Positions 4,686-54,631 of a stretch of 64,000 nt of DNA are shown in pieces; the stretch's first letter is position 1; each line of letters begins with the position of its first letter. The stretch is taken from positions 1,016 to 65,015 of the IMG/VR virus record IMGVR_UViG_3300009705_000015; one strand, given 5' to 3'. The position numbers and the translations under genes are program-made. The DNA comes from a virus (Duplodnaviria > Caudoviricetes). The notes beneath the pieces were generated by a model. That model saw only the letters and a program-made list of their open reading frames with translations. It was not told the DNA's origin and ran no database searches.

Positions 4686-4763
4686 TGGCCGACCCGATAC
4701 GCAGGTGGGCTGACGGCTTATCAATGTTTTGGTTCTCAATGTTTTTGGATTTTAGTGATTATT

Positions 4764-21812: not shown

Positions 21813-22046
21813 TATTCTGATGCTGGAGATGATACTATATCAATTGTTCGGTCTATCAATGTTGAATATCACAATAGCAATGTTCTTATACTCGTGGCCT
21901 CACCCATAGATTGTCGGGGAACAGCGACAATTCTCACAAACGGCACTCTCGAGAATCGGGAGGGTGTGGACTGCGTGGACTGAACAAATCAATTCTCACG
22001 TTCTCAATTGCCAATGCAATTAAACCATGAGGCGCAACCACCAATC

Positions 22047-33918: not shown

Positions 33919-34209
33919 GTTTAGTGCTGCAGGTTCCCCCTATTAAGGGTGTCGGTATATCAATGGTTTGAACCCCTTATTATTCTCAATATGGTGGTTA
34001 TCGAATGGAATAATTATGATTCAAAACATTGAAATTATCCCACCATTGATGAATCGAAGGATTAAATAGGTGGGTTTTCATGGATGATTTGGAGGGTGCG
34101 TGAACTCCCCATCTGTTTCAGGTTCTATCTCAAAGCGCATCCTCCAAATCAATCTCAATCTCACGTTCTCGCCAAAGGCTTGAAGAGGTTCGAGGGCTTC
34201 GAGTCTTTT

Positions 34210-35553
34210 ATGGCGAGGATATTATGGGGTTCAGAGCAACCCCTCCGACCAACAGGCTATGCGGTTGTCAGCCGTGAAATTATCAAACGATTGATTGCAG
34301 ATTATGGACATGAAGTTCATGTCATAGGTTGGGATTACAACGGCGAGGATTTCAAACACGAAGAAGGATGGATATTGAAACACTGTGGACTTCAATTCGG
34401 TGCATCAGAACCTCTTCAAATCGGCGTTGAAAACAGCCCAACCGTCTTGGACTATCACCTTCAAACCGTTGAGCCTGATGTTTATTTGAGCCTTGTTGAT
34501 TGCTGGTTTTGTGGCCACATGGTTCAATCGACAAACAAGGCTGGAGTTCCATACATTGGATATTTTCCAATCGACGGAGTTCCTATTTCAAACCAATGGA
34601 CACCTATTCTGGCGCACACCCACACCCCTCTATGGATGAGCGAGTTCGGTCGCCAGCAGTTCAAGGAGTTCGTGGCCAAATACCGACCAGATGGAAATGG
34701 ACATGAGAACTTGAAAATGCCTGACCTTGACCGATTCAATTTGGATAACGACGACGACTTTCCAATGATTCATCACGGCGTTGACATTGATACATTCAAA
34801 CCTCTATCGCTCACGGACAAAGAGATAATGAGGGGCAAATTGGGAATCAAATGGGAGACCGTCTTGAGTTCAATCGGGCGCAACACCAATCGCAAGCAGA
34901 TTCCAAGACTCTTGAGGGCGTTGAGAATTGCTCTTGATAAATTGGGAGATGATAATGCCATTGGTATAATTTTGCATTGCGGCGACCCTCTTGACCAAAT
35001 GAATCAGGGCGGTTGGAAACTGCCAGAACTCATCAAGCAATATGAACTCGTTGGGAATGTCATGTTCTCCGATGGTTCAAGCAATCCACTTCATGGAATA
35101 AGTCGTGAGGATATCGCCAATCTATTAGGTTGCTCGGATGCTCATGTGCTGGCAACAGGTGGAGAAGGATTTGGAATCCCATCGGCAGAAGCAATGGGAG
35201 TCGGAATCCCGATAATCCTCCCAGATAATTCAACGGGTCCAGAACTTATTGGACTCAATAATGAAAGAGGCTGGCTCGTGCCGTGTTCCGATTCGATAAC
35301 GGGTCCGAGATGGGGTGTCGATTTGGGGCTGGTTGACATTGAAGCGTTGGCCGATACCTTGATTGAACTTCACCAATCTCCGATTGAACGTATAAAAAGA
35401 GGCAAAGCGGCTCGCAAGTTCGTGGTCGAAAATCTCGATTGGGATTTGATAACTCGTCAGTTCCACGATTTGATTGAATCCAGAATCGGTATGAACCATC
35501 CCATGCAAGAATTATTGGAATCTCGTGCTGGGGGCGAAGAACCTGTCGAATAA
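34210..35553 (+). CDS. GT-B (family 4-like) glycosyltransferase
   Basis: PTGYA, IHHGVD..F, GRN..RK, GEGFGIP..EAM. Confidence 0.9.
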   Translation: MARILWGSEQPLRPTGYAVVSREIIKRLIADYGHEVHVIGWDYNGEDFKHEEGWILKHCGLQFGASEPLQIGVENSPTVLDYHLQTVEPDVYLSLVDCWFCGHMVQSTNKAGVPYIGYFPIDGVPISNQWTPILAHTHTPLWMSEFGRQQFKEFVAKYRPDGNGHENLKMPDLDRFNLDNDDDFPMIHHGVDIDTFKPLSLTDKEIMRGKLGIKWETVLSSIGRNTNRKQIPRLLRALRIALDKLGDDNAIGIILHCGDPLDQMNQGGWKLPELIKQYELVGNVMFSDGSSNPLHGISREDIANLLGCSDAHVLATGGEGFGIPSAEAMGVGIPIILPDNSTGPELIGLNNERGWLVPCSDSITGPRWGVDLGLVDIEALADTLIELHQSPIERIKRGKAARKFVVENLDWDLITRQFHDLIESRIGMNHPMQELLESRAGGEEPVE

Positions 35554-42100: not shown

Positions 42101-44141
42101 CCAAACCGACCGCATGACTCTAATTGAGTTCGATACGGGCGCACCCTCAATGTATCATGGCAGACACGCATTCACGACTCGTGGAACTGCAATGGCAGAG
42201 TCAATGAGAAGTGGATTCTTGCCTCGAAGTCAAGGTGGTTCAAGTTCCAACAGACCCGAATGGACTTCTTGGGAGTCGATGATTATTAACTCACAGGTCA
42301 GCCAACACATTGGGAACACAGAACTGTTCATCTGGGGCGGCTCGAAGACCTTTGACTCAACCGGATTCGATGCGGCTGCATGGAAAAACACCCTCACCAA
42401 TCCAGCCAATGGATGGATATTCAATTCGGCAATGGGGTCAAACAATGTTGGATGGGGCAATATGTCTAATGGATATGGAACAGGCACACCCACCACCATT
42501 TCAGAAGGTTATCACACTATCCGAACAACATTCGATGAAGAGGGAATGCTTCTCAACATTGATGGCACTACAATCGGCAAAGACTTGAACGTGAACAATC
42601 CGGTTTGGGGCTTCGCCATTCAAATGTCGAATGCCGGTGGTGCTGGCGCACGGGCTTCAACCTCACCAATCATTGACCCAAATAATTACTATCTATTCCC
42701 ATCAGGGATGGCATACAATAAGAGCCAAGCCGATTTGCAGATTGATGAAATGGTTGTTCGTCAAATACCATCTCTCCCAATGACACCATTCCCCGTTGAT
42801 ACAATTACGCAGCAGGTTGCTGGGGTTGGAAAATACACAGCACTATCTATCGAGGCCGATAACATTTCAGTCAACGCTGGAATGAACGTGAGAGTCTCAA
42901 TTTGTCCGGTGTCGGCAAATGTCGGCGGTCGTGAGATTGAAGGAGGAACTCCATACACCGGATTCAGCAACATGGATTGCGGCTTCGTTGGTGGATATGG
43001 CTCTGTCGATTTATCCACCTTGCCAGCCGATGCAATCACCAATGGATTCGTTATCCGATTCCTGTTTTTCACCCCAACCGCTTCTGACCCATCCCTCCAG
43101 CCTGTGAATTGGTCTTCGACACCAATAGTTCGAGCATGGACTTTGGAATATGACCTATCTCCGACATCAACAATTGCTTGCACGGGCAACACATTCAACG
43201 GCGACACCGTTGCACCAATCGACACGAAGGTCGGACACATAGTATCATTTAGAGGAACTGCAACCACCACCGATATTGACAGAACAATGTCGTCAGTTCG
43301 ATTCAATTTTGGAGATGGCGTGTCAACCGATTGGTTGCCATTCACCGACCAAACCCTTCAAAGCAACACATTCGATACGGCTCATTCTTATCTGACAACA
43401 GGAACTTATTCAGCAACACTTGAAGTCAGAGATGATGTTGGGAATCTCGCCACATCAGCGGCCTTGAGCGTGGTTGTTGCCAATGCACCTCCGGTCGCAA
43501 TCCTCCGTGCTGTGCCTTCTTTGGTTCGTGCTGGAGATGTTTGCACTTTGGATGCAACCGATTCATTCGATGTCAATGCCGGTGGCTCTTTGACCTCATA
43601 TACATTCGACTTTGGAGATGGCTCTGGAACAATCACGCAAGGCACACCAACGGCTCAACATACATATGCGGCGGCTGGTGAGTATCGAGCGACTCTCACA
43701 GTTCTGGATGCAGATTCGGCGGTATCTCAAACAGCATCGTCGATTGTCAAGTGTTTGCCAGCAACCCTCATTGTTCCATTAGTCTTCAACACCAAACCAA
43801 GAGCATTCAATCGCACACGCTCGGCGGAGATTGGCATGACTCCGGTTCTTGATGCGGTCTATCCTGAAATGACCGATACGGGCAATCGGTCAGATACGTT
43901 CTCATTGTCTGGAATGTTTTTGAAATCGACAGCCAATTCCGATATAGGATTCGTCGAAGAATTACTGCTGACGGGCGCACTTGTTGAGTTCCTGTATGAG
44001 AATGTTGACTATGTTGGCAACCCATCTGGCAAAGTATTCACAGGGCGAATCACTTCATTCGATTATGAACGTCAAGGCGGCGAACATGGCCAAACCCCAT
44101 ACACGATAACTTTGGTTCGAGAAGCCGGACTTGGAGTATGA
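39177..44141 (+). CDS. large tail protein with C-terminal PKD domains
   Basis: Follows the tape measure gene; FNFGDG and FDFGDG...HTY...GEY.ATLTV PKD motifs. Confidence 0.8.
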   Translation: MASTTQKITFVYSRQKNGLCEVQRWWPAYIKNDGVGGLTVDPVLFRSTFGPDTIADEGRGLMDEANTAGLRVEMIGFDGSAPSGTPSLEIIGSGTLDARCVLTHEDGTKTEWRFIGPSADGILATGSAGYGASDRHRAMSMNDGMNPATLASSGPYPVFATMQDFADWLDGYVNHGFGAYVAGFDENAASYSFLPAGLIEPDTSAWPPANADPRQDAANKAAIPTSSKMCATIFMPLLLDNNQMRDSQSGNTATSDIVKGQWDGATIETGAGNSGAYFNFYDEGMTRYDQSPNREGGAVIYKQLGNSGDHKPAKVGSYHTTDPTYNPDNIDDFINNDSDPSSSAYGGPSYRMRTALACFLKDGTYLLTGGSFIPYIYDPARTIGGSNGNTCYAVWNGDKGIANTPAEILAVDTDEMSSAQIFPLTEFVQGPLCSGAQGWNWDADVDGLTTYMNWIYYTQEQTDLKAQYDTTTYSGQTRPNSCTKIGQPRQGLVRPNPIRAKIYAAEQIGTTNATGLAGITTGECKGVLKVWIEKMGTKSVHVPSGMPVNLDFLGLMDGTKDIVGNNDVQYMIGTNTPKVGATENYQLGDTGTAATTGTLLGVSRSGWWIPSISTTLTAVNKSTIVAGATGTFTGVLLEFYINQEVDLPDIASYEEGGWACQGLMGGAEVQYGTGTYTTGSWPYQPLNDPTNGTLGGTGQKYSPNAKNKYNIPAAQFDGKNALPFYSFPTGLGWNAGWNQAGQNVPTAAGHDYRHPTVAVNSPQATWVSDFSGYQDDQQITPRGLSIVAADDSRYLMTPTAQGIGGGMLRLPAPPNFGLADYYYSPTEVLHLDDGTNAPIYGDFSGYFAYGPLDVAAADSSIFKSDTTDARWRSKSMVMPLYSYMENRTGDSGFDKTLPSSWRVGRNRPYPIHERIGTKGGYGPLSGLNYWAINNANAAHSSNRPQVGEETIMTGLAEIGCSPIWLDLTIRAWWPTQTDRMTLIEFDTGAPSMYHGRHAFTTRGTAMAESMRSGFLPRSQGGSSSNRPEWTSWESMIINSQVSQHIGNTELFIWGGSKTFDSTGFDAAAWKNTLTNPANGWIFNSAMGSNNVGWGNMSNGYGTGTPTTISEGYHTIRTTFDEEGMLLNIDGTTIGKDLNVNNPVWGFAIQMSNAGGAGARASTSPIIDPNNYYLFPSGMAYNKSQADLQIDEMVVRQIPSLPMTPFPVDTITQQVAGVGKYTALSIEADNISVNAGMNVRVSICPVSANVGGREIEGGTPYTGFSNMDCGFVGGYGSVDLSTLPADAITNGFVIRFLFFTPTASDPSLQPVNWSSTPIVRAWTLEYDLSPTSTIACTGNTFNGDTVAPIDTKVGHIVSFRGTATTTDIDRTMSSVRFNFGDGVSTDWLPFTDQTLQSNTFDTAHSYLTTGTYSATLEVRDDVGNLATSAALSVVVANAPPVAILRAVPSLVRAGDVCTLDATDSFDVNAGGSLTSYTFDFGDGSGTITQGTPTAQHTYAAAGEYRATLTVLDADSAVSQTASSIVKCLPATLIVPLVFNTKPRAFNRTRSAEIGMTPVLDAVYPEMTDTGNRSDTFSLSGMFLKSTANSDIGFVEELLLTGALVEFLYENVDYVGNPSGKVFTGRITSFDYERQGGEHGQTPYTITLVREAGLGV

Positions 44142-44274
44142 TTATACGACCGATATTGACTCCAATACATCGGAATATCAATACGAACTTCGAGAGTATA
44201 TGAACTCCGCAAAAAAGAACCTAAGTATTGATATACCGACACATTGATATAGTCGAGGCTACACCATTCAAATT

Positions 44275-44696
44275 GTCCGAGCATCCAGCCGAACACCCGA
44301 CTCCCCCAAAGCGGGGCTGAGAACGGTGGGAGTCTGGCGGCTAAGACCGATGCGCCTCCGCATGAAAAGTGCGGGGGATAAAATTGGAAACGAGAGCGAT
44401 TAGAGTCCTCAAGCCTTGAGCCTCCAGAGTCTCCCAAGCAGGTTAAAATGTGCGGGATTACGGCATGGTAGCAAGACAGGATTAGTGTCCACCCTTTGGC
44501 GAGGGTGGTTGGGTATATGATTTGTTTGCGAATATCAGATATTCACAGAACGCACCGACTTCACCTATTTACACGGTGATGTCGATTGTCAGTATGTGTT
44601 TGCTCTCGTTCCCCTGCCTGTCAGAAAGAGTATCGGCGCACTACGCCAAGTGTGTCGAGAGGGTATCTGGCAAGGGTGGGCGCATCGGTTTGGGCT
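44275..44696 (+). ncRNA. candidate large structured ncRNA, about 420 nt
   Basis: Class A promoter 44227-44253 with no ATG at +30; long-range helices 44344-44356/44679-44691 and 44389-44398/44601-44610; several local hairpins. Confidence 0.7.
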
Positions 44697-44752
44697 TCTT
44701 ATTCCATTGATATTACCAAAGCATTGATAAGGGGGAACTGCCAGCGTTGGAT

Positions 44753-45097
44753 ATGACCCAACAGTCAAAGCCAACCAGCCTAAAAGACCGAATGACCAAA
44801 ATGGGGCAAAATAGCCTTTATCCTAATCACATCATCCACCCGATGATGCCAACGGATGCAACCCCTTTGATGCAGAAAATGGTTGAGAACTTTTGCTCTT
44901 ATAATGATACATGGGTCAGCACCCACATGGATAGAGACTTTCTCCTTAGCCTAAACAAATCGCAATACCAATCTCACCGCAATGGCTACAACGCCTCTCC
45001 TGAACAAAGCGAAGCAATCAACGCTCTCGTTGCAGCAGAAGTCTTTGAACTCAATACCACATACAAGCCGGTTCTTATCCTCATCAATTGGGTTTAA
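44753..45097 (+). CDS. hypothetical protein (class A cassette)
   Basis: cattgatattaccaaagcattgataaggggg then ATG at +29. Confidence 0.65.
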   Translation: MTQQSKPTSLKDRMTKMGQNSLYPNHIIHPMMPTDATPLMQKMVENFCSYNDTWVSTHMDRDFLLSLNKSQYQSHRNGYNASPEQSEAINALVAAEVFELNTTYKPVLILINWV

Positions 45098-45141
45098 TCA
45101 AAAGCGAATCCGTGATAAGCCCCAAGCGTTCCACTTGAAGT

Positions 45142-46968
45142 GTGGTTGACGATAGCATAGAGCGATTCCACCGGCTGGTGCGGTCGCCAGAGGATGCGAT
45201 GGTGATTACACCACCTCAACCCCTTCTCGATGAGATAGAGCGTCTTGGACAAGACCCTCGCCGACCACGAACAGCAATTGCGAGATGGGCTTCAAGAATC
45301 TGGTTGGAACACGCTCACACGGCTCGGCTCGAAGGTATCTCCGATAATGAAATTGATTCCACGCATAGTGAAAAAGAATTGATGGAACGGCCATCTCATT
45401 ATCCTGATGATTGGGGTCTTGATTTGATTCCATTCCCATCCGACTTGGGCGGTTCATGGACACGAGATAAGACAACAACGCTCGCATACACCAGCCTCAC
45501 CACACCAAGACCATTCGACCCTCAATTGCATGGTGATGTTGGAACCAGCCCAGACCAAGCACTTGGGTTTGGATATAATTATCAAGGCAAATCGGGATTC
45601 CCAGACCAGCACGACATTGTTGCTCGTCGTGGCGGGGGTCCTCGTGGCGGATTCGCAATGACGACGGGTCCAACAGAAGGTGCATATCCCACAGCAATCC
45701 TCCCACAGCCCGTGTTCAATTTAGGGCGTCTGGGCTTCTCTAATGGAGGTTGGAATCCTGAAGGGCTACAATGGACAAACAGACCCAAGAGGATGCGCTT
45801 AGGAGGTCTTAGGAACGGCTGGGCGCATCGTGTGTTCTTCGCTCGCTCTCGTCGTGTGATGTTCCGCAATTTATTCGGTGCGATTTCAGAAGACGAAGCG
45901 ACTCCACTATGCCCGACCGTAGTGGTCAATGGAATGAATGACCTTCATGGAATACTATCGGTTTCAATGGACAAGACGTTCAATGCACCAACAATTTGCT
46001 CTATCGAAGTCAATAACCCATCTGGTCGTCGAACAGGAACTATCGTCGTTGGCGATACGATTCAGATTTATGCAGCACCGAGAACTTGGGCTGACCCTCC
46101 TTTGGTGTTCACCGGATATGTCTCCGAGATTAACGAATCGACAGAATCAATATCAGTTCGATGTTCAGATGCTCTCGGCTATCTCGGAATCGAAGTTATC
46201 AAATCCGAGCCTCATTATTATCAAACAGATGCGGCGACCGTTATCAAAGACTTCATTGCTAATTCAAATTATTCGCCACCAATCGGTCGGATATTGAATC
46301 AATCATTCGTTATCCTCCCAGCAGGCATTCTCTTTGCTGGAATGACAAGACTCAAAGCGGTGCAGGGGATATTGAACATCATCAACAGCACACCAAATCT
46401 CATTCAATTGTATTGCTCGCCAGATGGAATGATTTGTATGAAGCGGCTCAAAGAAGTTCACGATTCGACAACCATTCCGTATGTTGGAGGGCGACTCCCC
46501 AGAACTGCATCACCTCAAGACTTCTATGCTACGGGAATTGAACGTGAAAGCGGAGATTCAACGGGATTCAATGTGGTCGTGGTTAGCAATCCAAAATTGA
46601 ACATATTGGTCAGCATTCCGGTGAAGGGTTCACTTGCTTATCCAAACATTCCGGTTGAAAGAATTATCAAAGACGAGTCGATTATCAATGACAATCAAGC
46701 CAAAATGGTCGGGGAATATATGTTGAATACTCAAGGATTGGCGAAGACCAGATGGGTCGTTGAAGGAATCCCAGAGCGATTGGATATTGAAACCGGACAA
46801 ATCATGGAGTTCGCATCGGTTGAGGCGAGTCTTGCAGGGCGACAAAGGATATTCAATGTGTCTTGGCAAATCAGCCCAGCAATGTCAACCATGACTTTGA
46901 ATGTTGGCCGACAAGCACCAGACCTGCTCTCGACTTTGAAGTTCGCAGCAGGAATAAATCAGGGCTGA
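45142..46968 (+). CDS. baseplate hub / tail-tip protein (gpD/Tal-like C-terminal half)
   Basis: VFTGYV...VRCSD and hub-like architecture; position in the tail module. Confidence 0.6.
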   Translation: MVDDSIERFHRLVRSPEDAMVITPPQPLLDEIERLGQDPRRPRTAIARWASRIWLEHAHTARLEGISDNEIDSTHSEKELMERPSHYPDDWGLDLIPFPSDLGGSWTRDKTTTLAYTSLTTPRPFDPQLHGDVGTSPDQALGFGYNYQGKSGFPDQHDIVARRGGGPRGGFAMTTGPTEGAYPTAILPQPVFNLGRLGFSNGGWNPEGLQWTNRPKRMRLGGLRNGWAHRVFFARSRRVMFRNLFGAISEDEATPLCPTVVVNGMNDLHGILSVSMDKTFNAPTICSIEVNNPSGRRTGTIVVGDTIQIYAAPRTWADPPLVFTGYVSEINESTESISVRCSDALGYLGIEVIKSEPHYYQTDAATVIKDFIANSNYSPPIGRILNQSFVILPAGILFAGMTRLKAVQGILNIINSTPNLIQLYCSPDGMICMKRLKEVHDSTTIPYVGGRLPRTASPQDFYATGIERESGDSTGFNVVVVSNPKLNILVSIPVKGSLAYPNIPVERIIKDESIINDNQAKMVGEYMLNTQGLAKTRWVVEGIPERLDIETGQIMEFASVEASLAGRQRIFNVSWQISPAMSTMTLNVGRQAPDLLSTLKFAAGINQG

Positions 46969-47161
46969 TATTGGATTCGATATGAAAGTCGCTGATTTCA
47001 GCAACCCCCCAGCGGGTTGATGAAATGCAATTTGACGTTCTATTTGCCTGTCATATTGAACTCAATAGCATTGTCGATGTTTCAGGCTGGCTCGAAACGA
47101 CCGATTTCATTGCTGATTAAAGAACCAAAGCATTGATATAGTGGAATGCACACCGTTGTTT

Positions 47162-47665
47162 GTAGCCGGAACATCAGGCCACCGACGACCCTCGACAATA
47201 ACCGACCACTTTTGAGTCGGCTGGCGGGGATTATTTGAAACGCTACACACCTCAACATGGTGGATAGGGTGCGTGAGTCTCCTTCGAGGAGAACGGATGA
47301 AATAGCCACCTCCCAGATGTTGAGGCGTTCTAAAGACGAGCCTGTGCAGCACCTCGTGAACATCACTTGGTCAGACACCAGCGGAGAACTTAAAGTGGAA
47401 TTGGTTGAAAACCAATGAGAACGGGAGGCATGAGTCTTTCTCCCTCGTTTCAAATACATGGTGAGAATCTCTCCCTTAGCGGGGAGGGTCGTTGCCTTCA
47501 ACCGCACAGGGGGGAGGTCAATCAGAAACATCGAGTTCGTCTTTATTCGGGTGCAAACCGGAACTGAAAGGGTGGCGGGGGTGTGGGCGACAAGCGAAGA
47601 GTTCTATCAACCTCACCGATGATTTGGTTTAGCGACCATCTCATCGGTGCTGGTTGGCCACTTCA
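47162..47665 (+). ncRNA. candidate large structured ncRNA, about 500 nt
   Basis: Class A promoter at 47116-47142; nested helices 47183-93/47484-94, 47232-42/47446-56 (perfect 11 bp), 47250-58/47317-25, 47614-22/47641-49. Confidence 0.75.
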
Positions 47666-47719
47666 CCTTCTTTCATCCTTAGCAACAACCACTTAAAGCG
47701 GCGAGGATTACCATTTGAT

Positions 47720-50700
47720 GTGCCACCAGCGCCAGCAATAACCCCCTCCACAGGAATGCCGGTTGATACGGTGGATATGATTCCACCAATCGGGAGTCGG
47801 GGCTTGCCCTTGACCCTCGTTTTTCACGATAGCATTGACGACACCATTGCCGATGCAGCCAATTCCCGTATGGCTCTCTGGGATGAAGCGGTTTGGACAC
47901 CGAGAGCGACGAATGCGGTCGGTGCATCTGGAACTGTAATCAATCCCAAAGGGGTCGTGCCATCAACAACAACATTCGACAAATCAAGTTATCCACCAAC
48001 ACCAACCAATCTCGGAATGGAACAAATCCCAAGAGCGTTTGGATTGCGAATCGCAACAACCGCACCCAGATTGAATCATGCGAGAGGGCATTTGCTTCAA
48101 GGACAAACAGGTCAAGACATTGGGGCGAGTCGCCACTATCCAGAACAAGTGAAAGGAACTTGCGGATTTGGAGGCTTGTCGATTACAGAAGCGGGTCAAT
48201 TCACATCTCATCCAACAGAAGGCTACACATCGGCTCGTGCTGGGAATCACACTTGGTCTCAAACATCAAGGTCTCAAACATCTCAATTTGACCAGATGGC
48301 CGGAATGCCATTCGTTGAAGGAACATTCTCCAGCACAGAATCCACATGGATTGGGGGTCCTCAAGTGGCCAACATAGCCCACAGTGTTGCTGGCGATATT
48401 CCATCAAATGGTCTTGGGATAATTTATGGAGATAAGCACAATTCACAGTTCCAAACCACGCTTGTATCGAGTCCGATATTGTCAACGGCGACAACGTGTG
48501 GAATCGCTTTCACCGAAGACGAACATACATTCTCATCTCATTGGGTCATAAATCTCCGAACAGACCAACCATTCGTTGAAACGGGTCAAGACATTTCAAT
48601 GCCAGATGGATTGACAGGCTGGTCAGTGATGGGTCAAGCGTCTGCTCGCCATGCCAATGCTGCGTTCAGTGGTGAAGACACCATCCAACAAATCCTCACA
48701 CACGATGCAATATCCAATGGCACAGCCCCACCTCAATCGAAGGAAAACACGACTCTTGGTCGTGTTGATTTGGGCGCAAGTGTGGTTGTCGATTCAGCAG
48801 GTTTGATTGGATATGAAGGTGTGATTGTAGCCAGCGCATTCTTCGCACCAACGAGAGACACCGACCCGACCCAGATTCAAGGTGCAATATCCAACGACAC
48901 CACCTCGAAGGGCTATGCGGGGATTAACATTCAAGTTCATAGTGGAATGACGGCCAGACGAAACCAGACACCATTGATTGATACTGGACCCGAACCCTAT
49001 CTCTATGGAACCGATGGTTTAGTAGTCATGCCAATGACCGATATGGTCAAGACATATGCAGGTCGAGGAATCGGACACACTGTTCCAGCCTCAACAAATG
49101 CAAACAACACATGGGTTCGGAACTTTGGTCGTGTCAGAGATGATGGGTCGGGATTGCCAAGTCAAGCCCCAGCGGTTGGCGATACCACCGCCAAGCCATT
49201 TGGGAATGGGCTAATCGAACGTAAAGGGGCGGGTCGAGCCACTAAAATTGTTGGCTCGAATGCGTGTTCGGTTGGTTCGCCAGAGTCGATTGATTTAGAA
49301 TACAGCACAGGCCGTTGGATTGCAGATGGAGTTCCAACCAAAGTTCAAGTCATTCCCTCAATTGTTGGCTACACCGATGTGGTTGTTGCTGCCGGTGCTG
49401 CAAAATTAGCAGCCAATCCCGCAGCACCAAACCAAACATTCCGCAAGCCAATCGTGGATTATCACGTTCTGGTATCGGTTATTGACCCCAATAATGTTCC
49501 TGCTGCGGTTGCCGATACTGACCCAGCGAACACGAACATTGGTCAACCAACGAACAGGAATGCGCCGATGTCAAATCGACTACACATTGATGCTAATTAT
49601 CAAGACATTCCATGCACTATTTATCACGCTATTTTCAGAATTGACCCGACCAATCTGGAACAGATATTTATTGAATCTGGTGCTGGAGTTATGGCCGGTT
49701 TGGATGCCACCAATTTTGATTGTAAAGCATCCATCATCCCTCGTCATTCTTTCACCGATGGTGAATATGCTCAACAAGGTTGGGGTCTTCACCAAGCGAC
49801 ACCATTCCGACCGATAGCATTGGCCGACTCGAATACTCGGATTCCAAAATTATGCGCCGCCATCGAGGCTGGTGGATTCTATCAACGAGGTGGGATTTCA
49901 CATCTCTGGGATGCCTCCATCTATGAAGGTGAACTCTTTGTTGGGGCTGATTTCATTGACTCACATGACCTATGTGTAGCCACCGGCACGAAGGATGGCC
50001 ACACCACATTTGGTGTGTTTGGCAATGGTCAAATATGGCCAGATGGAACTCCATCCCCTCAACGACCAAAGGGAACTGAATTGATGGTGTGGCGATACTC
50101 GCCGACCCTCGACCCTCTTTGGACTAAAGACACCACATTTGCCAGCAATCCAATCAAGGATATGTTCCCAAAGTCAGTGGTATCGGTGGCATATGATACC
50201 TCTTGCGACACCATGACGAGAGCATCCACCGACTTGTTGAATATATCACGAACTGCAATCGGAATCGGTGCGGTCTGGAATCTCCACGATTGGGTTATGC
50301 CACAGATTGAAATGATGAGATATTTGGGTCGTGAAGAGAAGGATGCGGTGGTTCATCCTTTATCATCACAGGCTGCATCTCCACCTCTCCCCATCTATCA
50401 CCCAACGCTTCATTGTTCCAGCCTGCGAATCATGGAGGATGGTCGGATGGCTATGGCGGCGGTGCATATCGACTACATCAAAACCGAGAATGATTATCCA
50501 GCGGTTGACATCAAATATCCTTTGAATCCTGACCTTGACACGGGCGGTTGTCCTGCTGGATATTACCAATCTGGTGGCAAGTGCATTCCACTTGATGGTG
50601 GTCAAAGCGACAATCCATCGGGATATGGTTCAGACCCAGCATCTGGAGATGTAGTTCCCGAACCAACCGGCGCACCATCACCCGTCAATGGGTCAGGTGG

Positions 50701-53700
50701 TTCGACTCCCAAGAGCGATAACTTCTCCGCATATCCAACATGGTCGAAACTGATGGCGAACACACAGGCTCGCTCGTTGATTTTGATGTTCACCGATGTC
50801 AAAGAGGATGAACAAACAGGACTCGCCAAGCGTGGGCGAGCGTTGTTTGATATTCGATGGGAGACCATTCCTATGGGAGATGGAGAAGTTCCAGATACTA
50901 TCGCCAACCAAATGTGGGTTGATGGAGATACTTGGTGGTCAGGTGCAAGAATCTCATATTGGTATGCCGAATCTGGACAACAAGCAATTCCAATCACATA
51001 TGGTTCATATCCCGATTGCCGAATGACTTTTGCACATTTACCACGTTCATTGCCATTCATCGAAAATATAATTATTGGGTCCAATACGGTTGGAACTATC
51101 CGTTCTGGATTCCCGCAGATTCAGCCGATTACCACAGCACGAACTTTGAGCGTTGCTTTGCCATTTATCAATGCAAATCTCGGCCAGCCTGTGAGCGCAT
51201 GGTCGGTTGAGCGCATTGCGTTTTTGACATTGACTCGGTTCGTGGCAACGACAATCGGCTTTGCTGACTTTGGCTCTGGTGCGAATCCTCACCAAGAACT
51301 TGGGTGGTCTGGTTGGTCATTCCCTCGTGGCCTCTATGACCCAGCAGCATTCGGAGATAACACTTTATTCTTTTCAGATGCGCCAGAATCAACAGAAGCA
51401 GAACCACCAATCGGTGGTGTCATTGTTCCAACCGAGCAAGGGATATTCGCTGGATTCGGAGATATTATTGACGATAATGCTGGAGGGGCGAATCCATACG
51501 CACCAGCATTTGCATATTCTCTCGATTGTTCAGCCATCACATATCCTGTGAACCTTGAATCATTCAGAGCATACAAAGCCGGTGGAACAGGAGAACAATT
51601 GTTGAATCCACCAAGAACCTGTGGTGGTTTGACAGAAGTTCTCGCCAACATAATGGACCCAGCGCAATCGACTTATTTTGCTCTCGACCAAGAATATGTC
51701 AACACCGGAGAGCCTCCATTCCAGATTATTGGAACTTCATTGGTGAGAACATACAACCCCTTCAATCCTCCAACGATTGAAGCGCAGATGCTTTGGACTT
51801 CAATAACTCTTGGTGGAACTACAATTCCATTCGTGTTTCATGGAACAGAAGGCCACCGATTGATGCGGGGTGGACAAGGTGGATGGTCGCATCACGGACC
51901 CCTCCACTATGGAATCTCAACCAAATTGCATCCATACCGTGTCGATAGAGTCTTCAAACAAGTTCACGGTGGTGTTGGCTACAATTTGCCGATTCATTTG
52001 CTCAAGCCTCCTGCTGTCCATGTGCGAGCGAGAGCCGGAGGGCGCAATTCTCTTGAACTTGAAATGGAGACTCCATTCCACCGAACTGACAACATTCACT
52101 TGCTCGGTGCTGCGACTTTCAACACCGGATTTGAACTCGGTGGGGAATCTCCAGCAGGTCAAGCACGACCCGTTGCTGGTCAATACTTCTTGCGAACTAA
52201 TCTATGGGATAAACCAATGTGGCCAACGGGTGGTGCAAAGCCAGCCAAGACTCTTGGGCTTGGTGCATACACGAGAGTTCACGGACCCATTGTCAGTGGC
52301 TCATATGGGCTTGAGGCATTCTGGTCAGACCATCCAACCGACCACTTTCATGCTGCGGCGATACCAATTCTCCCCAACACCGATTATGACCTATCTATGA
52401 TTCAAAATAGCCGATACTCACCAATGATGCTTGGTCGAATCAAGGAAATGAGTCGGCACGATATGATTGCTGTGTCAGAACAATTGATGTCGTCTGTTGA
52501 CGTTCATGTATCGAAAAGTTCTCGACCAATGTGGGATTCTGGCGGAATCGTATCGGCTCAAGGTATTGGGTATAAGGATGCGGTTGCGGGTCCATACATG
52601 ATTCAAACACAATCCTCGATGGATGGTGAGAACTTGAAGGGTCCGGCGACTATGGCCGGTGGTTCGGGTCCACAGTGTCTCGGTCATGGCCAACGTATAG
52701 TCAGAACTCCAGATGGAACTCTTCACCAATTCCAATTCCACAGGTCGGTTCAATCTGGGTCGCTCAATCTCCCCCAATGGTGTCATTTGAAAAAGCCAAT
52801 TCATGCGGATTTGTTTTACAATCGCAGAGCAATGAAACCAGACCAAGACGCTGCGGTGTTCGGTGGCAAGGATGAATGTGGACCCACATTGGCATCCGTT
52901 GGTGCTGGGATGAGTCAAGGTGAATACCATAAAGGCCGAGTCATGGGGGCTGCGTTTTGTTCCGATTCAAATGGAACTCTCCATGCGGTTATTGAATATC
53001 ATCCAAATCCAAATGATGTGCCAAGCCATCAAGCGCATGAACTGTATTATCATAAGGCTGAAAGAACCATGTCAACATACAATCCAGAACCCGTTTATGA
53101 TTGGGATTGGTCAGTTCACACACCCGTGTTGATTCAATCTGGATTGACAGGAACAACAGAATCGGGAGGAACTCGATGGGATTTGAGGCAACCATCTCTC
53201 GTGTGCGATTCTCAAGACAAATTGCATCTCGCCGTTGTCCAAGTTCTATCCACCGTTGGTGGTTCAGGATTGCCTCAATCGACAAGGATATTCTATACTT
53301 GTAAATTGGATAGTGAACCATCATTCGCCGATTGGGTTCCATTGGATTCCACAGCACGGCCTGACGACAATAGGTGGCAATTGGTTCACGGCTCGATTCC
53401 TGATGCTGGCTATACTACGCTCAACCAAGCATCGGTGGGTCCACATTACACCAATTTCAACGCAGAGCCAAAGGTTTGTCTTCGTGGCGACAACCTGCCT
53501 GTTGTATTTTATCGAGGTTTTCCAATCCAATCGTTTGGAATTGCTGACAGGAACTATTCGGCGATATATGCCAACATAGGAATAAGCCCAAATGTATTGT
53601 CAAACGACCCATCAGGGAGATACGCATTCGACACCAAACGATGTTATCATGTGGTTGGATTGCCACCAGATGCAAAGAATACTCTTGAGCCATACAATGT

Positions 53701-54631
53701 CGTGTATTATGACGCAATCATAGATGAGCGAGATAGAGCATTGGTCGTGTCGTGCAAGGATGATAGAGACACCTCGTTGGCCAAAACATTCGCACCAAGA
53801 CAAACACTTCTCACCGTCTTTGATACTCGCAAGACACTTGCTGAACAATACGATGCAATCAATGGACTTGGCAATCACATAACGGTCTGGCGTGGACCCG
53901 TGTATAATGGAACAAGCGAACTGAAAGCCGTTGACCCATCATATCGAGATTTGACTTTAAGCACGGATGGAAAAGGCAACATTCATCTGGTAATGACTTT
54001 CAGTATGATTGGCGAAGACGATGGGAGACTCGGAGAAGTGTATCGAGATGCTGCTTCTCCACAGGTCAGACAATCGGCGCTGGGTCCACTTCAATGGGCG
54101 GCGACTCCAACGGGCAAACTGAACGTCAGCGGGGTCGAAACCCCATATCTGGGTGGATTCATCAAGCCAAACATTTCACCGAATTGGTCTGGGGCGGTTG
54201 TTCCACCATATCCACCATACATGGATTCAACCACAGGCCGTGAATATCAACATATTTTGCATTGCTGGATTCCGTCGATTGAGTTCGACACGACTGCGAA
54301 CGTATTACGCTCAATCAATATCCGCTGGCTATCCGTGCCATCTCTCCGATGGGATAACGCCAACAACACTTGGAGTCCTGTTGGCTCGGCTCAAACAATG
54401 GCCGGTCAAGAGGATTTTCCACACCATTCGACTCAATTGCGCTATCAACGATTCTGGGGATATGATGCGTCAGAGATTGATTTGAGATGGTTCACCAACG
54501 AAACCTCATGGTATCGAACAGGACATAAAGGCGCAGATTTGTATTATCCATCGGCTGGCGGAGTTCAAATGCAAATGGGAGATTCTCAAACGAAAGGTGA
54601 AGGAATCGCAGGTTATCCAGACGGGCTGTGA
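47720..54631 (+). CDS. giant (about 2300 aa) putative tail/receptor-binding protein
   Basis: Uninterrupted Pro/Gly/Thr-rich ORF with SD..G.LH-like propeller repeats near the C-terminus; start uncertain. Confidence 0.7.
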   Translation: MPPAPAITPSTGMPVDTVDMIPPIGSRGLPLTLVFHDSIDDTIADAANSRMALWDEAVWTPRATNAVGASGTVINPKGVVPSTTTFDKSSYPPTPTNLGMEQIPRAFGLRIATTAPRLNHARGHLLQGQTGQDIGASRHYPEQVKGTCGFGGLSITEAGQFTSHPTEGYTSARAGNHTWSQTSRSQTSQFDQMAGMPFVEGTFSSTESTWIGGPQVANIAHSVAGDIPSNGLGIIYGDKHNSQFQTTLVSSPILSTATTCGIAFTEDEHTFSSHWVINLRTDQPFVETGQDISMPDGLTGWSVMGQASARHANAAFSGEDTIQQILTHDAISNGTAPPQSKENTTLGRVDLGASVVVDSAGLIGYEGVIVASAFFAPTRDTDPTQIQGAISNDTTSKGYAGINIQVHSGMTARRNQTPLIDTGPEPYLYGTDGLVVMPMTDMVKTYAGRGIGHTVPASTNANNTWVRNFGRVRDDGSGLPSQAPAVGDTTAKPFGNGLIERKGAGRATKIVGSNACSVGSPESIDLEYSTGRWIADGVPTKVQVIPSIVGYTDVVVAAGAAKLAANPAAPNQTFRKPIVDYHVLVSVIDPNNVPAAVADTDPANTNIGQPTNRNAPMSNRLHIDANYQDIPCTIYHAIFRIDPTNLEQIFIESGAGVMAGLDATNFDCKASIIPRHSFTDGEYAQQGWGLHQATPFRPIALADSNTRIPKLCAAIEAGGFYQRGGISHLWDASIYEGELFVGADFIDSHDLCVATGTKDGHTTFGVFGNGQIWPDGTPSPQRPKGTELMVWRYSPTLDPLWTKDTTFASNPIKDMFPKSVVSVAYDTSCDTMTRASTDLLNISRTAIGIGAVWNLHDWVMPQIEMMRYLGREEKDAVVHPLSSQAASPPLPIYHPTLHCSSLRIMEDGRMAMAAVHIDYIKTENDYPAVDIKYPLNPDLDTGGCPAGYYQSGGKCIPLDGGQSDNPSGYGSDPASGDVVPEPTGAPSPVNGSGGSTPKSDNFSAYPTWSKLMANTQARSLILMFTDVKEDEQTGLAKRGRALFDIRWETIPMGDGEVPDTIANQMWVDGDTWWSGARISYWYAESGQQAIPITYGSYPDCRMTFAHLPRSLPFIENIIIGSNTVGTIRSGFPQIQPITTARTLSVALPFINANLGQPVSAWSVERIAFLTLTRFVATTIGFADFGSGANPHQELGWSGWSFPRGLYDPAAFGDNTLFFSDAPESTEAEPPIGGVIVPTEQGIFAGFGDIIDDNAGGANPYAPAFAYSLDCSAITYPVNLESFRAYKAGGTGEQLLNPPRTCGGLTEVLANIMDPAQSTYFALDQEYVNTGEPPFQIIGTSLVRTYNPFNPPTIEAQMLWTSITLGGTTIPFVFHGTEGHRLMRGGQGGWSHHGPLHYGISTKLHPYRVDRVFKQVHGGVGYNLPIHLLKPPAVHVRARAGGRNSLELEMETPFHRTDNIHLLGAATFNTGFELGGESPAGQARPVAGQYFLRTNLWDKPMWPTGGAKPAKTLGLGAYTRVHGPIVSGSYGLEAFWSDHPTDHFHAAAIPILPNTDYDLSMIQNSRYSPMMLGRIKEMSRHDMIAVSEQLMSSVDVHVSKSSRPMWDSGGIVSAQGIGYKDAVAGPYMIQTQSSMDGENLKGPATMAGGSGPQCLGHGQRIVRTPDGTLHQFQFHRSVQSGSLNLPQWCHLKKPIHADLFYNRRAMKPDQDAAVFGGKDECGPTLASVGAGMSQGEYHKGRVMGAAFCSDSNGTLHAVIEYHPNPNDVPSHQAHELYYHKAERTMSTYNPEPVYDWDWSVHTPVLIQSGLTGTTESGGTRWDLRQPSLVCDSQDKLHLAVVQVLSTVGGSGLPQSTRIFYTCKLDSEPSFADWVPLDSTARPDDNRWQLVHGSIPDAGYTTLNQASVGPHYTNFNAEPKVCLRGDNLPVVFYRGFPIQSFGIADRNYSAIYANIGISPNVLSNDPSGRYAFDTKRCYHVVGLPPDAKNTLEPYNVVYYDAIIDERDRALVVSCKDDRDTSLAKTFAPRQTLLTVFDTRKTLAEQYDAINGLGNHITVWRGPVYNGTSELKAVDPSYRDLTLSTDGKGNIHLVMTFSMIGEDDGRLGEVYRDAASPQVRQSALGPLQWAATPTGKLNVSGVETPYLGGFIKPNISPNWSGAVVPPYPPYMDSTTGREYQHILHCWIPSIEFDTTANVLRSINIRWLSVPSLRWDNANNTWSPVGSAQTMAGQEDFPHHSTQLRYQRFWGYDASEIDLRWFTNETSWYRTGHKGADLYYPSAGGVQMQMGDSQTKGEGIAGYPDGL

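What the first reader, a model, noticed from the sequence alone, without database searches (positions are those of the whole stretch)
47162..47665. About 500-nt ornate ncRNA between two tail genes
Seen: properly nested long-range helices CGACGACCCTC(47183)/GAGGGTCGTTG(47484), TATTTGAAACG(47232)/CGTTTCAAATA(47446) and CCTCAACAT(47250)/ATGTTGAGG(47317). Local hairpins include TCTCCTTCGAGGAGA, ATTGGTTGAAAACCAAT and CACCGATGA/TCATCGGTG, with a pyrimidine tract after 47660. The promoter lies 29 nt upstream and G-U wobbles favour the + strand. Inference: a large multi-domain RNA of unknown class.
Basis: partly seen in the sequence, partly recalled or inferred. Interest (0 to 1): 0.85.

Follow-up and report, generated by a model that had tools for sequence, protein, structure and literature searches.

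The report
Structured RNA leader of tail-fibre gene
The roughly 570 untranslated bases in front of a marine phage's giant tail-fibre gene look like a genuine folded RNA that belongs to a small, undescribed family of phage RNAs, but its job is still unknown.

Summary
The gap is larger than reported: it runs 46969-47719, because the big ORF most likely starts at GTG 47720. No frame in it is conserved as protein, and no Rfam family matches. A phage-specific promoter word (CATTGATAW, 21 copies in the window against 2.3 expected) sits at 47131-47142.

Relatives with the same gene order also carry 400-935 nt gaps here. Many of them start with a conserved 66-nt two-hairpin module. That module has covariation support: 96% of cells paired, 4 pairs changed on both sides, 0 of 500 shuffles as good.

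A model of this module gives its two best hits in the whole window at 44269-44383 and 47156-47235. These are the starts of the only two long non-coding units among the tail genes. Both hits are weak (E 0.031 and 0.52).

Helix 3 is predicted with P 0.89. Helix 1 is not supported.

RNA-library contigs from three studies lie on 47250-47542.

Verdict: a real + strand structured RNA, a divergent member of a new modular family. Whether it acts as a cis leader or as a stable trans RNA is open.

The parts
47125..47146 (+). Phage promoter word CCAAAGCATTGATATAGTGGAA. It reads as an extended -10 (TGATATAGT, 47134-47142). The inferred transcript start is near 47149-47151.
   Evidence: The word CATTGATAW occurs 21 times in the window against 2.28 expected, and 0 of 100 shuffles reach 21. 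Copies lie just before gene starts. Its role as a promoter is inferred, not shown.
47156..47231 (+). Divergent copy of the family's 5' module. It comprises the word UUGUUUGU; hairpin H2 (47162-47167 with 47177-47182, 5 of 6 pairs); the linker CCGACG; and H3 (47190-47194 with 47225-47229), which encloses the hairpin 47202-47206/47216-47220.
   Evidence: Model R2 hits 47156-47235 at 10.1 bits, E 0.52. This is the second best of 19 hits in a filter-free scan of the whole window. Model R1 gave E 0.041 within the leader. The spacing to the -10 word is 15 nt, against 16 nt in 14 of 19 units. Pairs were checked.
47232..47242 (+). 5' arm of the long-range helix P4 (UAUUUGAAACG). It overlaps the family word UGAAUUGGAAAC.
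   Evidence: Inverted repeat I2. 0 of 500 shuffles give an 11-bp Watson-Crick helix anchored here. Equivalent helices of other sequence occur in other units.
47243..47445 (+). Variable body closed by P4.
   Evidence: From the constrained fold. Helix 3 has pair probability 0.84-0.89. No homologue could be aligned, so there is no covariation test.
47446..47456 (+). 3' arm of P4 (CGUUUCAAAUA).
47467..47518 (+). Long hairpin (11+4+6 pairs). Its three U-G pairs would be A-C mismatches on the other strand.
47250..47542 (.). Stretch held as contigs in RNA libraries of three studies: X17 47251-47542, X18 47250-47538, X20 47253-47417.
   Evidence: The contigs are at least 99% identical. Contigs give no strand or level, and an RNA library can hold DNA. 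Two contigs stop within 4 nt of each other where a contig of DNA run X2 (47516-47830) goes on, which is a weak hint of an RNA end.
47607..47657 (+). Hairpin (47614-47622/47641-47649, plus outer pairs 47608-47612/47652-47656). It is not followed directly by a U run.
   Evidence: No terminator-like site was found in the leader.
47660..47719 (+). Pyrimidine tract (47660-47681), a conserved 3' segment with CAACAACCACTTAAAGCGGC (47683-47702), and GAGGA (47703-47707) before the start codon.
   Evidence: 81% identical to relative L002 over 47667-47719, E 7e-8. nhmmer matches the L002 leader to 47582-47719 at E 2.3e-5. The word is also present in L003 and L045.
47720..54631 (+). Giant tail-fibre-like ORF. 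The likely true start is GTG 47720 (MPPAPAITP...), not TTG 47654.
   Evidence: Alignment with L002, L003, L045, L041 and L068. L002 has an in-frame stop just before the equivalent GTG, and L041 and L068 start at ATG there. There is no Pfam or PHROG match, so 'tail fibre' rests on position and size only.
47082..47531 (-). It is judged not to be a gene.
   Evidence: Only itself among 58 candidates in 5.8 billion proteins. No Pfam or PHROG match. No tblastx match in relatives. It runs across the promoter word.
44262..44700 (+). Second, paralogous non-coding unit (unit A). It lies between the promoter words at 44226-44253 and those at 44705-44730. It holds a 5'-module match at 44269-44383 and a long-range helix 44389-44399/44600-44610.
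   Evidence: R2's best hit in the window, 13.6 bits, E 0.031. Fold z -3.38, 0 of 100 shuffles as good. Anchored helix found in 1 of 500 shuffles. RNA-library contigs at 44385-44535 and 44471-44622. No Rfam match.

Best explanation
Positions 47150-47719 are a + strand, non-coding, folded RNA made from the phage's own promoter word at 47131-47142. It is a divergent member of a so far undescribed, modular family of phage RNAs.

Family layout. Units start about 16 nt after the -10 word with a conserved module: the word UAGAUUGU, hairpin H2, the linker CCGAAG, hairpin H3, and the word UGAAUUGGAAAC. In many units a long helix of free sequence follows and closes a variable, hairpin-rich body.

This locus. 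No second promoter word was seen before GTG 47720, so the RNA is also the 5' leader of the giant tail-fibre-like gene.

Mechanism I think most likely (inferred, about 35-40%). The module at the 5' end of the nascent RNA is a handle for RNA polymerase or a phage or host factor. It acts in cis, nut/put-like, on elongation or on the stability and translation of the long structural mRNA. The conserved C/A/U-rich 3' segment is the ribosome landing site. The folded body survives as a stable fragment.

Shown: non-coding status, family resemblance, covariation in the family module, presence in RNA libraries. Inferred: transcript start, strand in this window, any function.
For: Non-coding.
- tblastx against 42 related loci finds nothing in 46969-47653. 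Protein-level matches begin at 47654-47672.
- The minus 149-aa ORF has no relative, and neither does the 50-aa + ORF.
- The 53-aa + ORF has only two hits, E 1e-4 and 4e-4. The better hit (E 1e-4) is a tandem-repeat protein; the other was not looked at.

Promoter. CATTGATAW occurs 21 times against 2.28 expected, and the copies lie before gene starts.

Synteny. 10 loci plus the window have the 608-aa gene, then a gap, then the big gene. That makes 6 distinct sequences, with gaps of 404-935 nt.

Family module.
- Model R1 finds it in 16 places at E below 1e-4 across 14 loci.
- On 14 distinct sequences, 96.3% of cells pair and 4 pairs have changes on both sides. 0 of 500 shuffles reach this, and slid controls give 44-70%.
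- U-G at one H3 pair in 13 of 14 sequences fixes the + strand.

The window's copies. In a filter-free scan of 128 kb, R2's two best hits of 19 are 44269-44383 (E 0.031) and 47156-47235 (E 0.52). Each lies 15-17 nt after a -10 word, in the only two long non-coding gaps of the tail region.

Post-H3 helix. Shuffles that reach the observed helix: window B 0/500, window A 1/500, L003 2/500, L041 4/500, L093 4/500, L084 15/500, and L100 1/200.

Energy. Forcing H2, H3 and P4 costs 3.0 kcal/mol of 198.9.

3' segment. It is conserved with L002.

Context. The module precedes the portal gene in L084, L093 and L101 and the big tail gene in 6 sequence types. This fits a cis role for long structural genes. 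L002 has a hairpin plus U6 about 50 nt before its start codon.

RNA. Contigs from RNA libraries of three studies lie on 47250-47542.
Against: - The window's match to the module is weak (10.1 bits, E 0.52). Past the promoter word it is not significant by sequence alone.
- The body has no homologue anywhere I searched, so its folds are prediction only.
- Fold z-scores are modest: -2.9 for 47162-47665 and -1.7 for 47250-47542.
- P4 has only 0.03 probability in the unconstrained ensemble.
- The post-H3 helix is absent or not significant in 10 of 17 units, including the closest relative L002: L068 79/500 and L101 500/500; L045 21/200, L022b 24/200, L055b 26/200, L055a 43/200, L092 91/200, L022a 141/200, L089 185/200 and L002 197/200.
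- The RNA-contig ends (47250, about 47540) do not coincide with P4 (47232, 47456). Contigs show neither strand nor transcription.

Against a purely cis role:
- L046 and L092 units end in a strong terminator about 225 nt after the module and face a convergent gene.
- The window's unit A is followed by fresh promoter words.
- No N-, Q- or other antiterminator-like protein was recognised among the 36 ORFs scanned.
Confidence: 0.5

Rival explanations
1. The unit is an independent, stable, trans-acting phage RNA. The conserved 5' module is a protein-binding or processing handle, and the swap-able body is the working part, for example a decoy against a host defence or a regulator of host genes. It merely sits upstream of the tail-fibre gene and lends that gene its promoter.
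For: - Stand-alone units exist. L046 and L092 carry promoter, module, about 150 nt of body and a strong hairpin plus U run, then a convergent gene.
- The window's unit A ends before new promoter words.
- The bodies differ completely between phages whose flanking proteins are 50-70% identical.
- RNA-library contigs from three studies lie on both of the window's units. Two of them stop within 4 nt of each other near 47540, where a DNA contig goes on (weak hint).
Against: - The units examined lie more often directly upstream of a large structural gene on the same strand than facing a convergent gene (four unit types: L046, L089, L092, L100).
- No terminator was found in window B.
- No target, partner protein or seed is known.
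- Contigs cannot show a discrete RNA species.
Confidence: 0.25
2. The stretch is a fast-evolving spacer or recombination junction between tail-gene modules. Only the promoter and the last 50-140 nt before the start codon are functional, and the folding of the body is incidental.
For: - There is no sequence conservation of 47243-47580 with any relative.
- Fold z-scores are modest.
- Gap length varies from 404 to 935 nt.
Against: - The family module shows compensatory changes.
- Other bodies, such as block b2 of L003/L041/L068/L004, keep hairpins through paired changes seen by eye.
- The anchored 11-bp helix arose in 0 of 500 shuffles.
- Unit A folds at z -3.38.
Confidence: 0.15
3. The stretch codes for protein: either the minus-strand 149-aa ORF 47082-47531, or the two + strand ORFs 47257-47418 (53 aa) and 47415-47567 (50 aa), which overlap by ATGA.
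For: - The ORFs exist.
- The ATGA overlap resembles translational coupling.
- The RNA contigs end 7-11 nt outside the minus ORF's ATG at 47531.
Against: - The searches found no credible relatives.
- There is no Pfam or PHROG match for the 149-aa ORF and no tblastx signal in relatives.
- The minus ORF runs over the promoter word, and the RNA contigs stop at 47250, inside that ORF.
- Relatives have no equivalent ORFs.
Confidence: 0.05
4. It is a member of a known RNA class, such as GOLLD, ROOL, a group I or II intron, RNase P, a self-cleaving ribozyme, or a retron or DGR RNA.
For: The only lead is a chance-level partial match to an HDV-like ribozyme model at 47232-47266 (15.5 bits, gathering score 44, E 5.1).
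Against: - No Rfam 15 family reaches its gathering score in the window or in 12 related loci.
- Nothing scores below E 4 in 46800-47900. In L003 6800-7650 the best is a miRNA model at E 0.018, far under its gathering score. Nothing scores below E 7 in unit A.
- There is no tRNA or tmRNA.
- There is no reverse transcriptase among the 36 ORFs scanned.
- The gap shares no repeat with the tail genes.
Confidence: 0.02

Closest known systems
HK022 put RNA (cis-acting, RNA-only processive antiterminator of a lambdoid phage; PMC9378689, seen only as a search listing and the start of the abstract; details recalled)
   Same: A short module of two hairpins, transcribed soon after a phage promoter and lying ahead of long operons. 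A cis action on the transcribing polymerase would explain the fixed 16-nt spacing to the -10 word.
   Different: No anti-pausing or anti-termination activity has been tested. The family module also heads units that end at a strong terminator (L046, L092), which a put-like element would be expected to override. A 200-400 nt structured body follows the module.
Lambda nut sites (boxA plus boxB hairpin), N/Nus antitermination (PMC3177189 and PMC2800207, search listings only; details recalled)
   Same: A conserved single-stranded word (CCGAAG) next to hairpins whose stems covary, placed promoter-proximal in a phage.
   Different: No N-like protein was recognised. The word is not boxA. There are two or three stems instead of one small hairpin.
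GOLLD and ROOL, large ornate RNAs often found in phages and prophages (PMC12286853, search listing and start of abstract only)
   Same: Several hundred nucleotides long, with many hairpins, phage-borne, and of unknown function.
   Different: No match to any Rfam model. Only the 66-nt 5' module is conserved here, while the body is not; GOLLD and ROOL keep a large conserved core (recalled). This RNA lies directly in front of a structural gene as its leader.
Structured 5' leaders and attenuators of long bacterial operons, such as the EAR element or riboswitch leaders (recalled, no call)
   Same: Promoter, then a structured leader, then the gene. One relative (L002) has a terminator hairpin just before the ORF. 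Leader fragments often outlast their mRNA.
   Different: No ligand-binding or known leader family matches. The window's copy has no terminator. The family also occurs as stand-alone units.

Membership tests
Any Rfam 15 family (including GOLLD, ROOL, group I/II introns, RNase P, 6S, tmRNA, small ribozymes) | Covariance-model score at or above the family's gathering score | tested here: not met
   0 matches at gathering score in the 64-kb window and in 12 related loci. In 46800-47900 there are only 4 matches, with E 4.2-9.3 and 12.7-15.5 bits against gathering scores of 35-50. Unit A has 2 matches, with E 7.4 and 9.8.
Retron or DGR template RNA | An adjacent reverse transcriptase gene; for a DGR, a template repeat matching a variable repeat in a target gene | tested here: not met
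   No RT domain in the 36 ORFs scanned with Pfam. blastn of the gap against the window finds only the short promoter-word repeats. The record is about 80% complete, so an RT outside it is not excluded.
New phage 5'-module family (defined here by models R1 and R2) | The module starts a fixed distance after the phage -10 word | tested here: met
   16 nt in 14 of 19 units, 15 nt in window B, 17 nt in window A and L002, 14 nt in L045, and one unit not measured.
New phage 5'-module family (defined here by models R1 and R2) | Hairpin H2 followed by CCGAAG | tested here: met
   Window B has GUAGCC/GGCCAC with 5 of 6 pairs, where GG/CC is swapped to CC/GG relative to L045 and L002, followed by CCGACG (one mismatch).
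New phage 5'-module family (defined here by models R1 and R2) | Hairpin H3 (CUCCCGA-UGCGAG-UCGGGGG) and a significant model score | tested here: inconclusive
   In window B, H3 is replaced by CCUCG/CGGGG around a 30-nt insert that has its own hairpin. R2 scores 10.1 bits, E 0.52 for 128 kb. R1 scores 7.2 bits, E 0.041 for 661 nt. Support comes from its rank (second of 19 hits) and its position behind a promoter word, not from the score.
New phage 5'-module family (defined here by models R1 and R2) | A long helix of free sequence starting at the word after H3 | tested here: met
   Window B has 11 Watson-Crick pairs at 47232/47456, matched by 0 of 500 shuffles. The feature is significant (at or below 15/500 or 1/200) in 7 of 17 units and absent in others, so it is frequent but not universal.
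put-like or nut-like antitermination element | Makes RNA polymerase read through terminators in cis | not testable with these tools
   Only architecture and position could be compared. A terminator lies in the leader of L002 but none in the window.

The most novel reading that the evidence does not exclude
These units are a new class of modular phage RNAs. A conserved promoter-proximal handle is fused to exchangeable, heavily folded cassettes of 150-400 nt. The cassettes accumulate as discrete stable RNAs in the sea and act in trans, for instance as decoys against host immunity or as RNA parts of tail or portal assembly. They sit next to the host-range genes with which they would be exchanged.
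Probability: 0.2. Interest if true: 0.85.

Novelty: new variant of a known kind. Interest (0 to 1): 0.62.

Why it matters
Phage non-coding RNAs of several hundred nucleotides are rare, and those known (GOLLD, ROOL) have no assigned function. Here an uncultured group of marine siphoviruses carries one to several such units in front of portal and tail-fibre genes. They share a covarying 66-nt module but have unrelated bodies, and pieces of them turn up in ocean RNA libraries from three studies.

If the module proves to be an RNA handle for polymerase or a factor, it would be a new antitermination or leader device outside the lambdoid phages. If the bodies act in trans, they would be a new pool of fast-changing phage RNAs beside the host-range genes.

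Either way, the family gives a compact, testable RNA motif. It also corrects the annotation of the tail-fibre gene start.

Tried and rejected
1. Direct homologues of the gap. blastn against the phage records, the 42 viral loci and between the gaps gave nothing but the promoter word and the last 53 nt. Exact-word scans of viral contigs with a 25-nt and a 32-nt word of the window found nothing; records near the window may be left out there.

2. A pattern for the window/L002/L045 type of module found only the L002-type contigs plus 4 chance hits in GC-rich coding DNA.

3. Metagenome contigs gave no relative closer than 71% protein identity.

4. The N-terminus of the big protein gave no loci as a single query. 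As an alignment it gave 8 loci, and only L070 and L075 came from new contigs; their leaders looked the same as L003's and L041's.

5. The conserved block b2 of L003, L041, L068 and L004 is not in the window, nor in L084, L093 or L101. I had thought 47545-47612 might match it by eye; no search supports that.

6. nhmmer with single leaders: L045, L003 and L041 gave no credible hit in the window's gap.

7. Sigma-70 and terminator consensus scans found nothing in the leader.

8. The compact-module pattern is absent from 185,579 species genomes, so there is no host clue. No cultured phage matches.

9. Allowing G-U pairs, the anchored-helix test was not discriminating (10/200 to 134/200 shuffles). 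I redid it with Watson-Crick pairs only.

10. Parts without cover:
- no RNA-library contig on 44636-47181, which holds the 608-aa gene and the small ORF;
- none on 47150-47249 or 47584-47851;
- no contig of DNA run X2 on 47155-47515 or on 44234-44635.
I draw no conclusion on relative expression or on strain-level replacement of the body.

12. Ideas considered and dropped for lack of any test:
- a sigma-dependent pause at the -10-like word TAGATT;
- an SD/anti-SD reading of the H3 strands;
- a short leader peptide starting at the UUG of the word after H3.

Full report
**Setting.** The window is a 65-kb IMG/VR virus record, estimated about 80% complete. Nearly all its long ORFs are on the + strand. 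Pfam identifies a large terminase, a portal protein fused to a MuF domain, a prohead protease, a capsid protein and a tape-measure protein. The tape-measure gene is followed by very large ORFs.

The finding lies between a 608-aa ORF (45142-46968) and a 2325-aa ORF listed from TTG 47654. Neither has a Pfam or PHROG match, so "tail gene" rests on position and size. No cultured phage is close. The 608-aa protein has no tblastn match in 50,697 phage records, and the terminase is about 30% identical to those of Bacillus and Listeria phages.

**The observation.** The three long-range complementarities are real and properly nested.

As a whole, 47162-47665 folds at -184.7 kcal/mol on the + strand (z -2.9, 1 of 100 shuffles as good) and at z -2.0 on the - strand. 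In the ensemble of 47147-47725:
- helix 3 (47250/47325) has probability 0.84-0.89;
- helix 2 (47232/47456) has 0.03;
- helix 1 (47183/47494) has 0.0.

**Extent and coding.** Alignment of the big protein with five relatives puts its start at GTG 47720. L002 has an in-frame stop just before the equivalent GTG, and L041 and L068 start with ATG at that point. The gap is therefore 46969-47719.

- tblastx against the 42 viral loci gives no match in any frame inside 46969-47653.
- The 50-aa + ORF finds nothing.
- The 53-aa + ORF finds two hits, E 1e-4 and 4e-4, among 1.84 billion representatives. The better hit is a tandem-repeat protein; I did not look at the other.
- ARAGORN finds no tRNA or tmRNA.

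**Promoter word.** CATTGATAW occurs 21 times in the window against 2.28 expected (0 of 100 shuffles reach 21), and 16 copies are on the + strand. The longer form GAACcAAAGCATTGATATAGT lies roughly 30-80 nt before the visible ATG in the copies I aligned. It reads as an extended -10 (TGnTATAGT). That it is a promoter is my inference. One copy is at 47131-47142, which is the "promoter 29 nt upstream".

**Relatives.** Ten loci plus the window keep the order 608-aa gene, gap, big gene. They fall into six distinct sequence types with gaps of 404-935 nt. The gaps start with the promoter word.

The window's gap has no nucleotide match to any of them, apart from the promoter word and the 3' end. There, 47667-47719 is 81% identical to L002 (E 7e-8), and nhmmer extends the match to 47582-47719 (E 2.3e-5).

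L003, L041, L068 and L004 share two blocks. In the second block, hairpins keep pairing through paired changes that I saw by eye, for example GUGAAG/CUUCAC against GUGGGG/CCUCAC against GUGGGC/GCCCAC.

**The 5' module.** The first block is a 66-nt module: UAGAUUGU, hairpin H2, CCGAAG, hairpin H3, then UGAAUUG.

- A pattern scan found it in 21 viral stretches.
- Model R1 finds 16 copies at E below 1e-4 in 14 loci.
- On 14 distinct sequences, 96.3% of cells pair, 4 of 16 pairs change on both sides, no shuffle of 500 reaches any of the five measures, and slid registers give 44-70% pairing. That alignment was fitted to the model, which favours the structure somewhat.
- One H3 pair is U-G in 13 of 14 sequences, so the folded strand is the + strand.
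- The module begins 16 nt after the -10 word in 14 of 19 units.

**Where the module sits**:
- before the portal gene in L084, L093 and L101;
- before the big tail gene in six sequence types;
- before the 608-aa gene in L022 and L055;
- facing a convergent gene in L046, L089, L092 and L100.

By my own loose hairpin-plus-U-run scan of 18 units, 6 have a terminator-like site. The strong ones lie about 225 nt after the module in L046 and L092. Another lies 50 nt before the ORF in L002. There is none in the window's units.

**Is the window's RNA a member?** R2 was rebuilt from the 16 copies and run without filters over the whole window. Its two best hits of 19 are 44269-44383 (13.6 bits, E 0.031) and 47156-47235 (10.1 bits, E 0.52).

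Taken alone these scores are marginal. However, both hits lie 15-17 nt after a -10 word, at the head of the only two long ORF-free gaps of the tail region. I take that coincidence as the main argument for homology.

In window B:
- H2 is GUAGCC/GGCCAC, with GG/CC swapped to CC/GG relative to L045 and L002;
- the linker is CCGACG;
- H3 is CCUCG/CGGGG around an inserted hairpin CCGAC/GUCGG.

Directly after the post-H3 word, many units have a long helix whose sequence differs from unit to unit. Counting Watson-Crick pairs only, the number of shuffles that reach the observed helix is as follows.

| Unit | Shuffles reaching it |
|---|---|
| window B (11 bp) | 0/500 |
| window A | 1/500 |
| L003 | 2/500 |
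| L041 | 4/500 |
| L093 | 4/500 |
| L084 | 15/500 |
| L068 | 79/500 |
| L101 | 500/500 |
| L100 | 1/200 |
| L045 | 21/200 |
| L022b | 24/200 |
| L055b | 26/200 |
| L055a | 43/200 |
| L092 | 91/200 |
| L022a | 141/200 |
| L089 | 185/200 |
| L002 | 197/200 |

The feature is therefore frequent (7 of 17 units clearly) but not universal, and the closest relative lacks it. With G-U pairs allowed, the test does not discriminate. Forcing H2, H3 and P4 in 47150-47719 costs 3.0 kcal/mol (-195.9 against -198.9).

**RNA libraries.** Of the runs that hold part of 44100-48100, I laid three RNA libraries from three studies and one DNA run. All are contigs, so they show presence only, and an RNA library can contain DNA.

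- X17 has contigs on 44385-44535 and 47251-47542.
- X18 has contigs on 44471-44622 and 47250-47538.
- X20 has contigs on 47253-47417 and 47870-48033.

The X17 and X18 contigs stop within 4 nt of each other near 47540, where a contig of DNA run X2 (47516-47830) continues. The tool rates that as a weak hint of an RNA end. These ends do not coincide with P4.

**Known families.** No Rfam 15 family reaches its gathering score in the window or in 12 related loci. Permissive searches of both units and of the L003 leader give only chance-level hits. No reverse transcriptase, Cas, TnpB-like or antiterminator protein was recognised among 36 ORFs.

A literature search with five terms (phage, noncoding RNA, tail fiber, metatranscriptom-, structured RNA) listed nothing of this kind. 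That single search is the only basis for my statement that the family is undescribed, besides Rfam.

**Reading.** I conclude that 47150-47719 is a genuine + strand structured RNA and a divergent member of a modular family. The family combines a conserved promoter-proximal module, often a closing helix, a free body, and here a conserved ribosome-landing segment.

Function is inferred only. I favour a cis role as a handle on polymerase or a factor for long structural genes, because most units I examined lie directly in front of such genes and because of the fixed spacing to the promoter. The stand-alone, terminated units of L046 and L092, and the window's unit A, keep a trans-acting stable RNA as a serious rival.

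Supplementary files of papers were not consulted and bear on no claim here.

Noticed in passing
window 44262-44700: A second promoter-driven non-coding unit (unit A). It lies between the 1655-aa PKD-domain ORF and a 114-aa ORF (44753-45097) that has its own promoter words at 44705-44730. It folds at z -3.38, gives R2's best hit in the window, has a long-range helix 44389-44399/44600-44610, and carries contigs from two RNA libraries.
   Followed up: partly
window 21880-22027: A degenerate third copy of the module lies just before the portal gene (22008). A promoter-like GTTCTTATACTCG is followed by CATAGATTGTCGGGGAACAGCGACAAT and a second hairpin. R2 scores it at only 7.1 bits (E 5.8). In relatives L084, L093 and L101 a full module precedes the portal gene.
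   Followed up: partly
window, 21 sites (e.g. 3160, 11242, 15876, 19022, 30133, 44242, 47131, 60483): The phage-specific word CATTGATAW occurs 21 times against 2.3 expected. It often appears as two or three copies about 17 nt apart and lies before gene starts, which frequently read GGATATGA. It is probably the phage's promoter and reads like an extended -10.
   Followed up: partly
window 47654-47719: The 2325-aa ORF as listed starts at TTG 47654. Comparison with five relatives puts the real start at GTG 47720.
   Followed up: yes
L046 2265-2545; L092 (minus strand of the locus): Stand-alone form of the family. It has promoter words, the 66-nt module, about 150 nt of body and a strong hairpin (-18.8 kcal/mol) followed by UUUUUGCU, then a convergent gene. 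This looks like a discrete RNA gene of about 240 nt.
   Followed up: partly
L022 3950-4959; L055 4795-5770: After the 608-aa gene these relatives have about 900 nt without long ORFs. The stretch holds several promoter-like words (TTATATAGG), each followed by GGCCCCTACGGTTAAACAGAG-like starts. This may be an array of several small non-coding units.
   Followed up: no
L002 7120-7175: The closest relative has a hairpin followed by UCUUUUUU about 50 nt before the start codon of its big tail gene. The window has only a hairpin (47607-47657) with a pyrimidine tract further on.
   Followed up: partly
window 4755-6614, 7244-9496, 34084-35553: Other gene content: a collagen-repeat protein, a C-5 cytosine DNA methylase, and a group-1 glycosyltransferase that lies among the structural genes.
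   Followed up: no
family module H3 (e.g. L041 6928-6949): The two strands of H3 read like an anti-Shine-Dalgarno (CCUCCC) and a Shine-Dalgarno-like run (GGGGGGUGA), followed by AUUG/UUG. Short ORFs of different length would start there (8-16 codons in the four I read).
   Followed up: no
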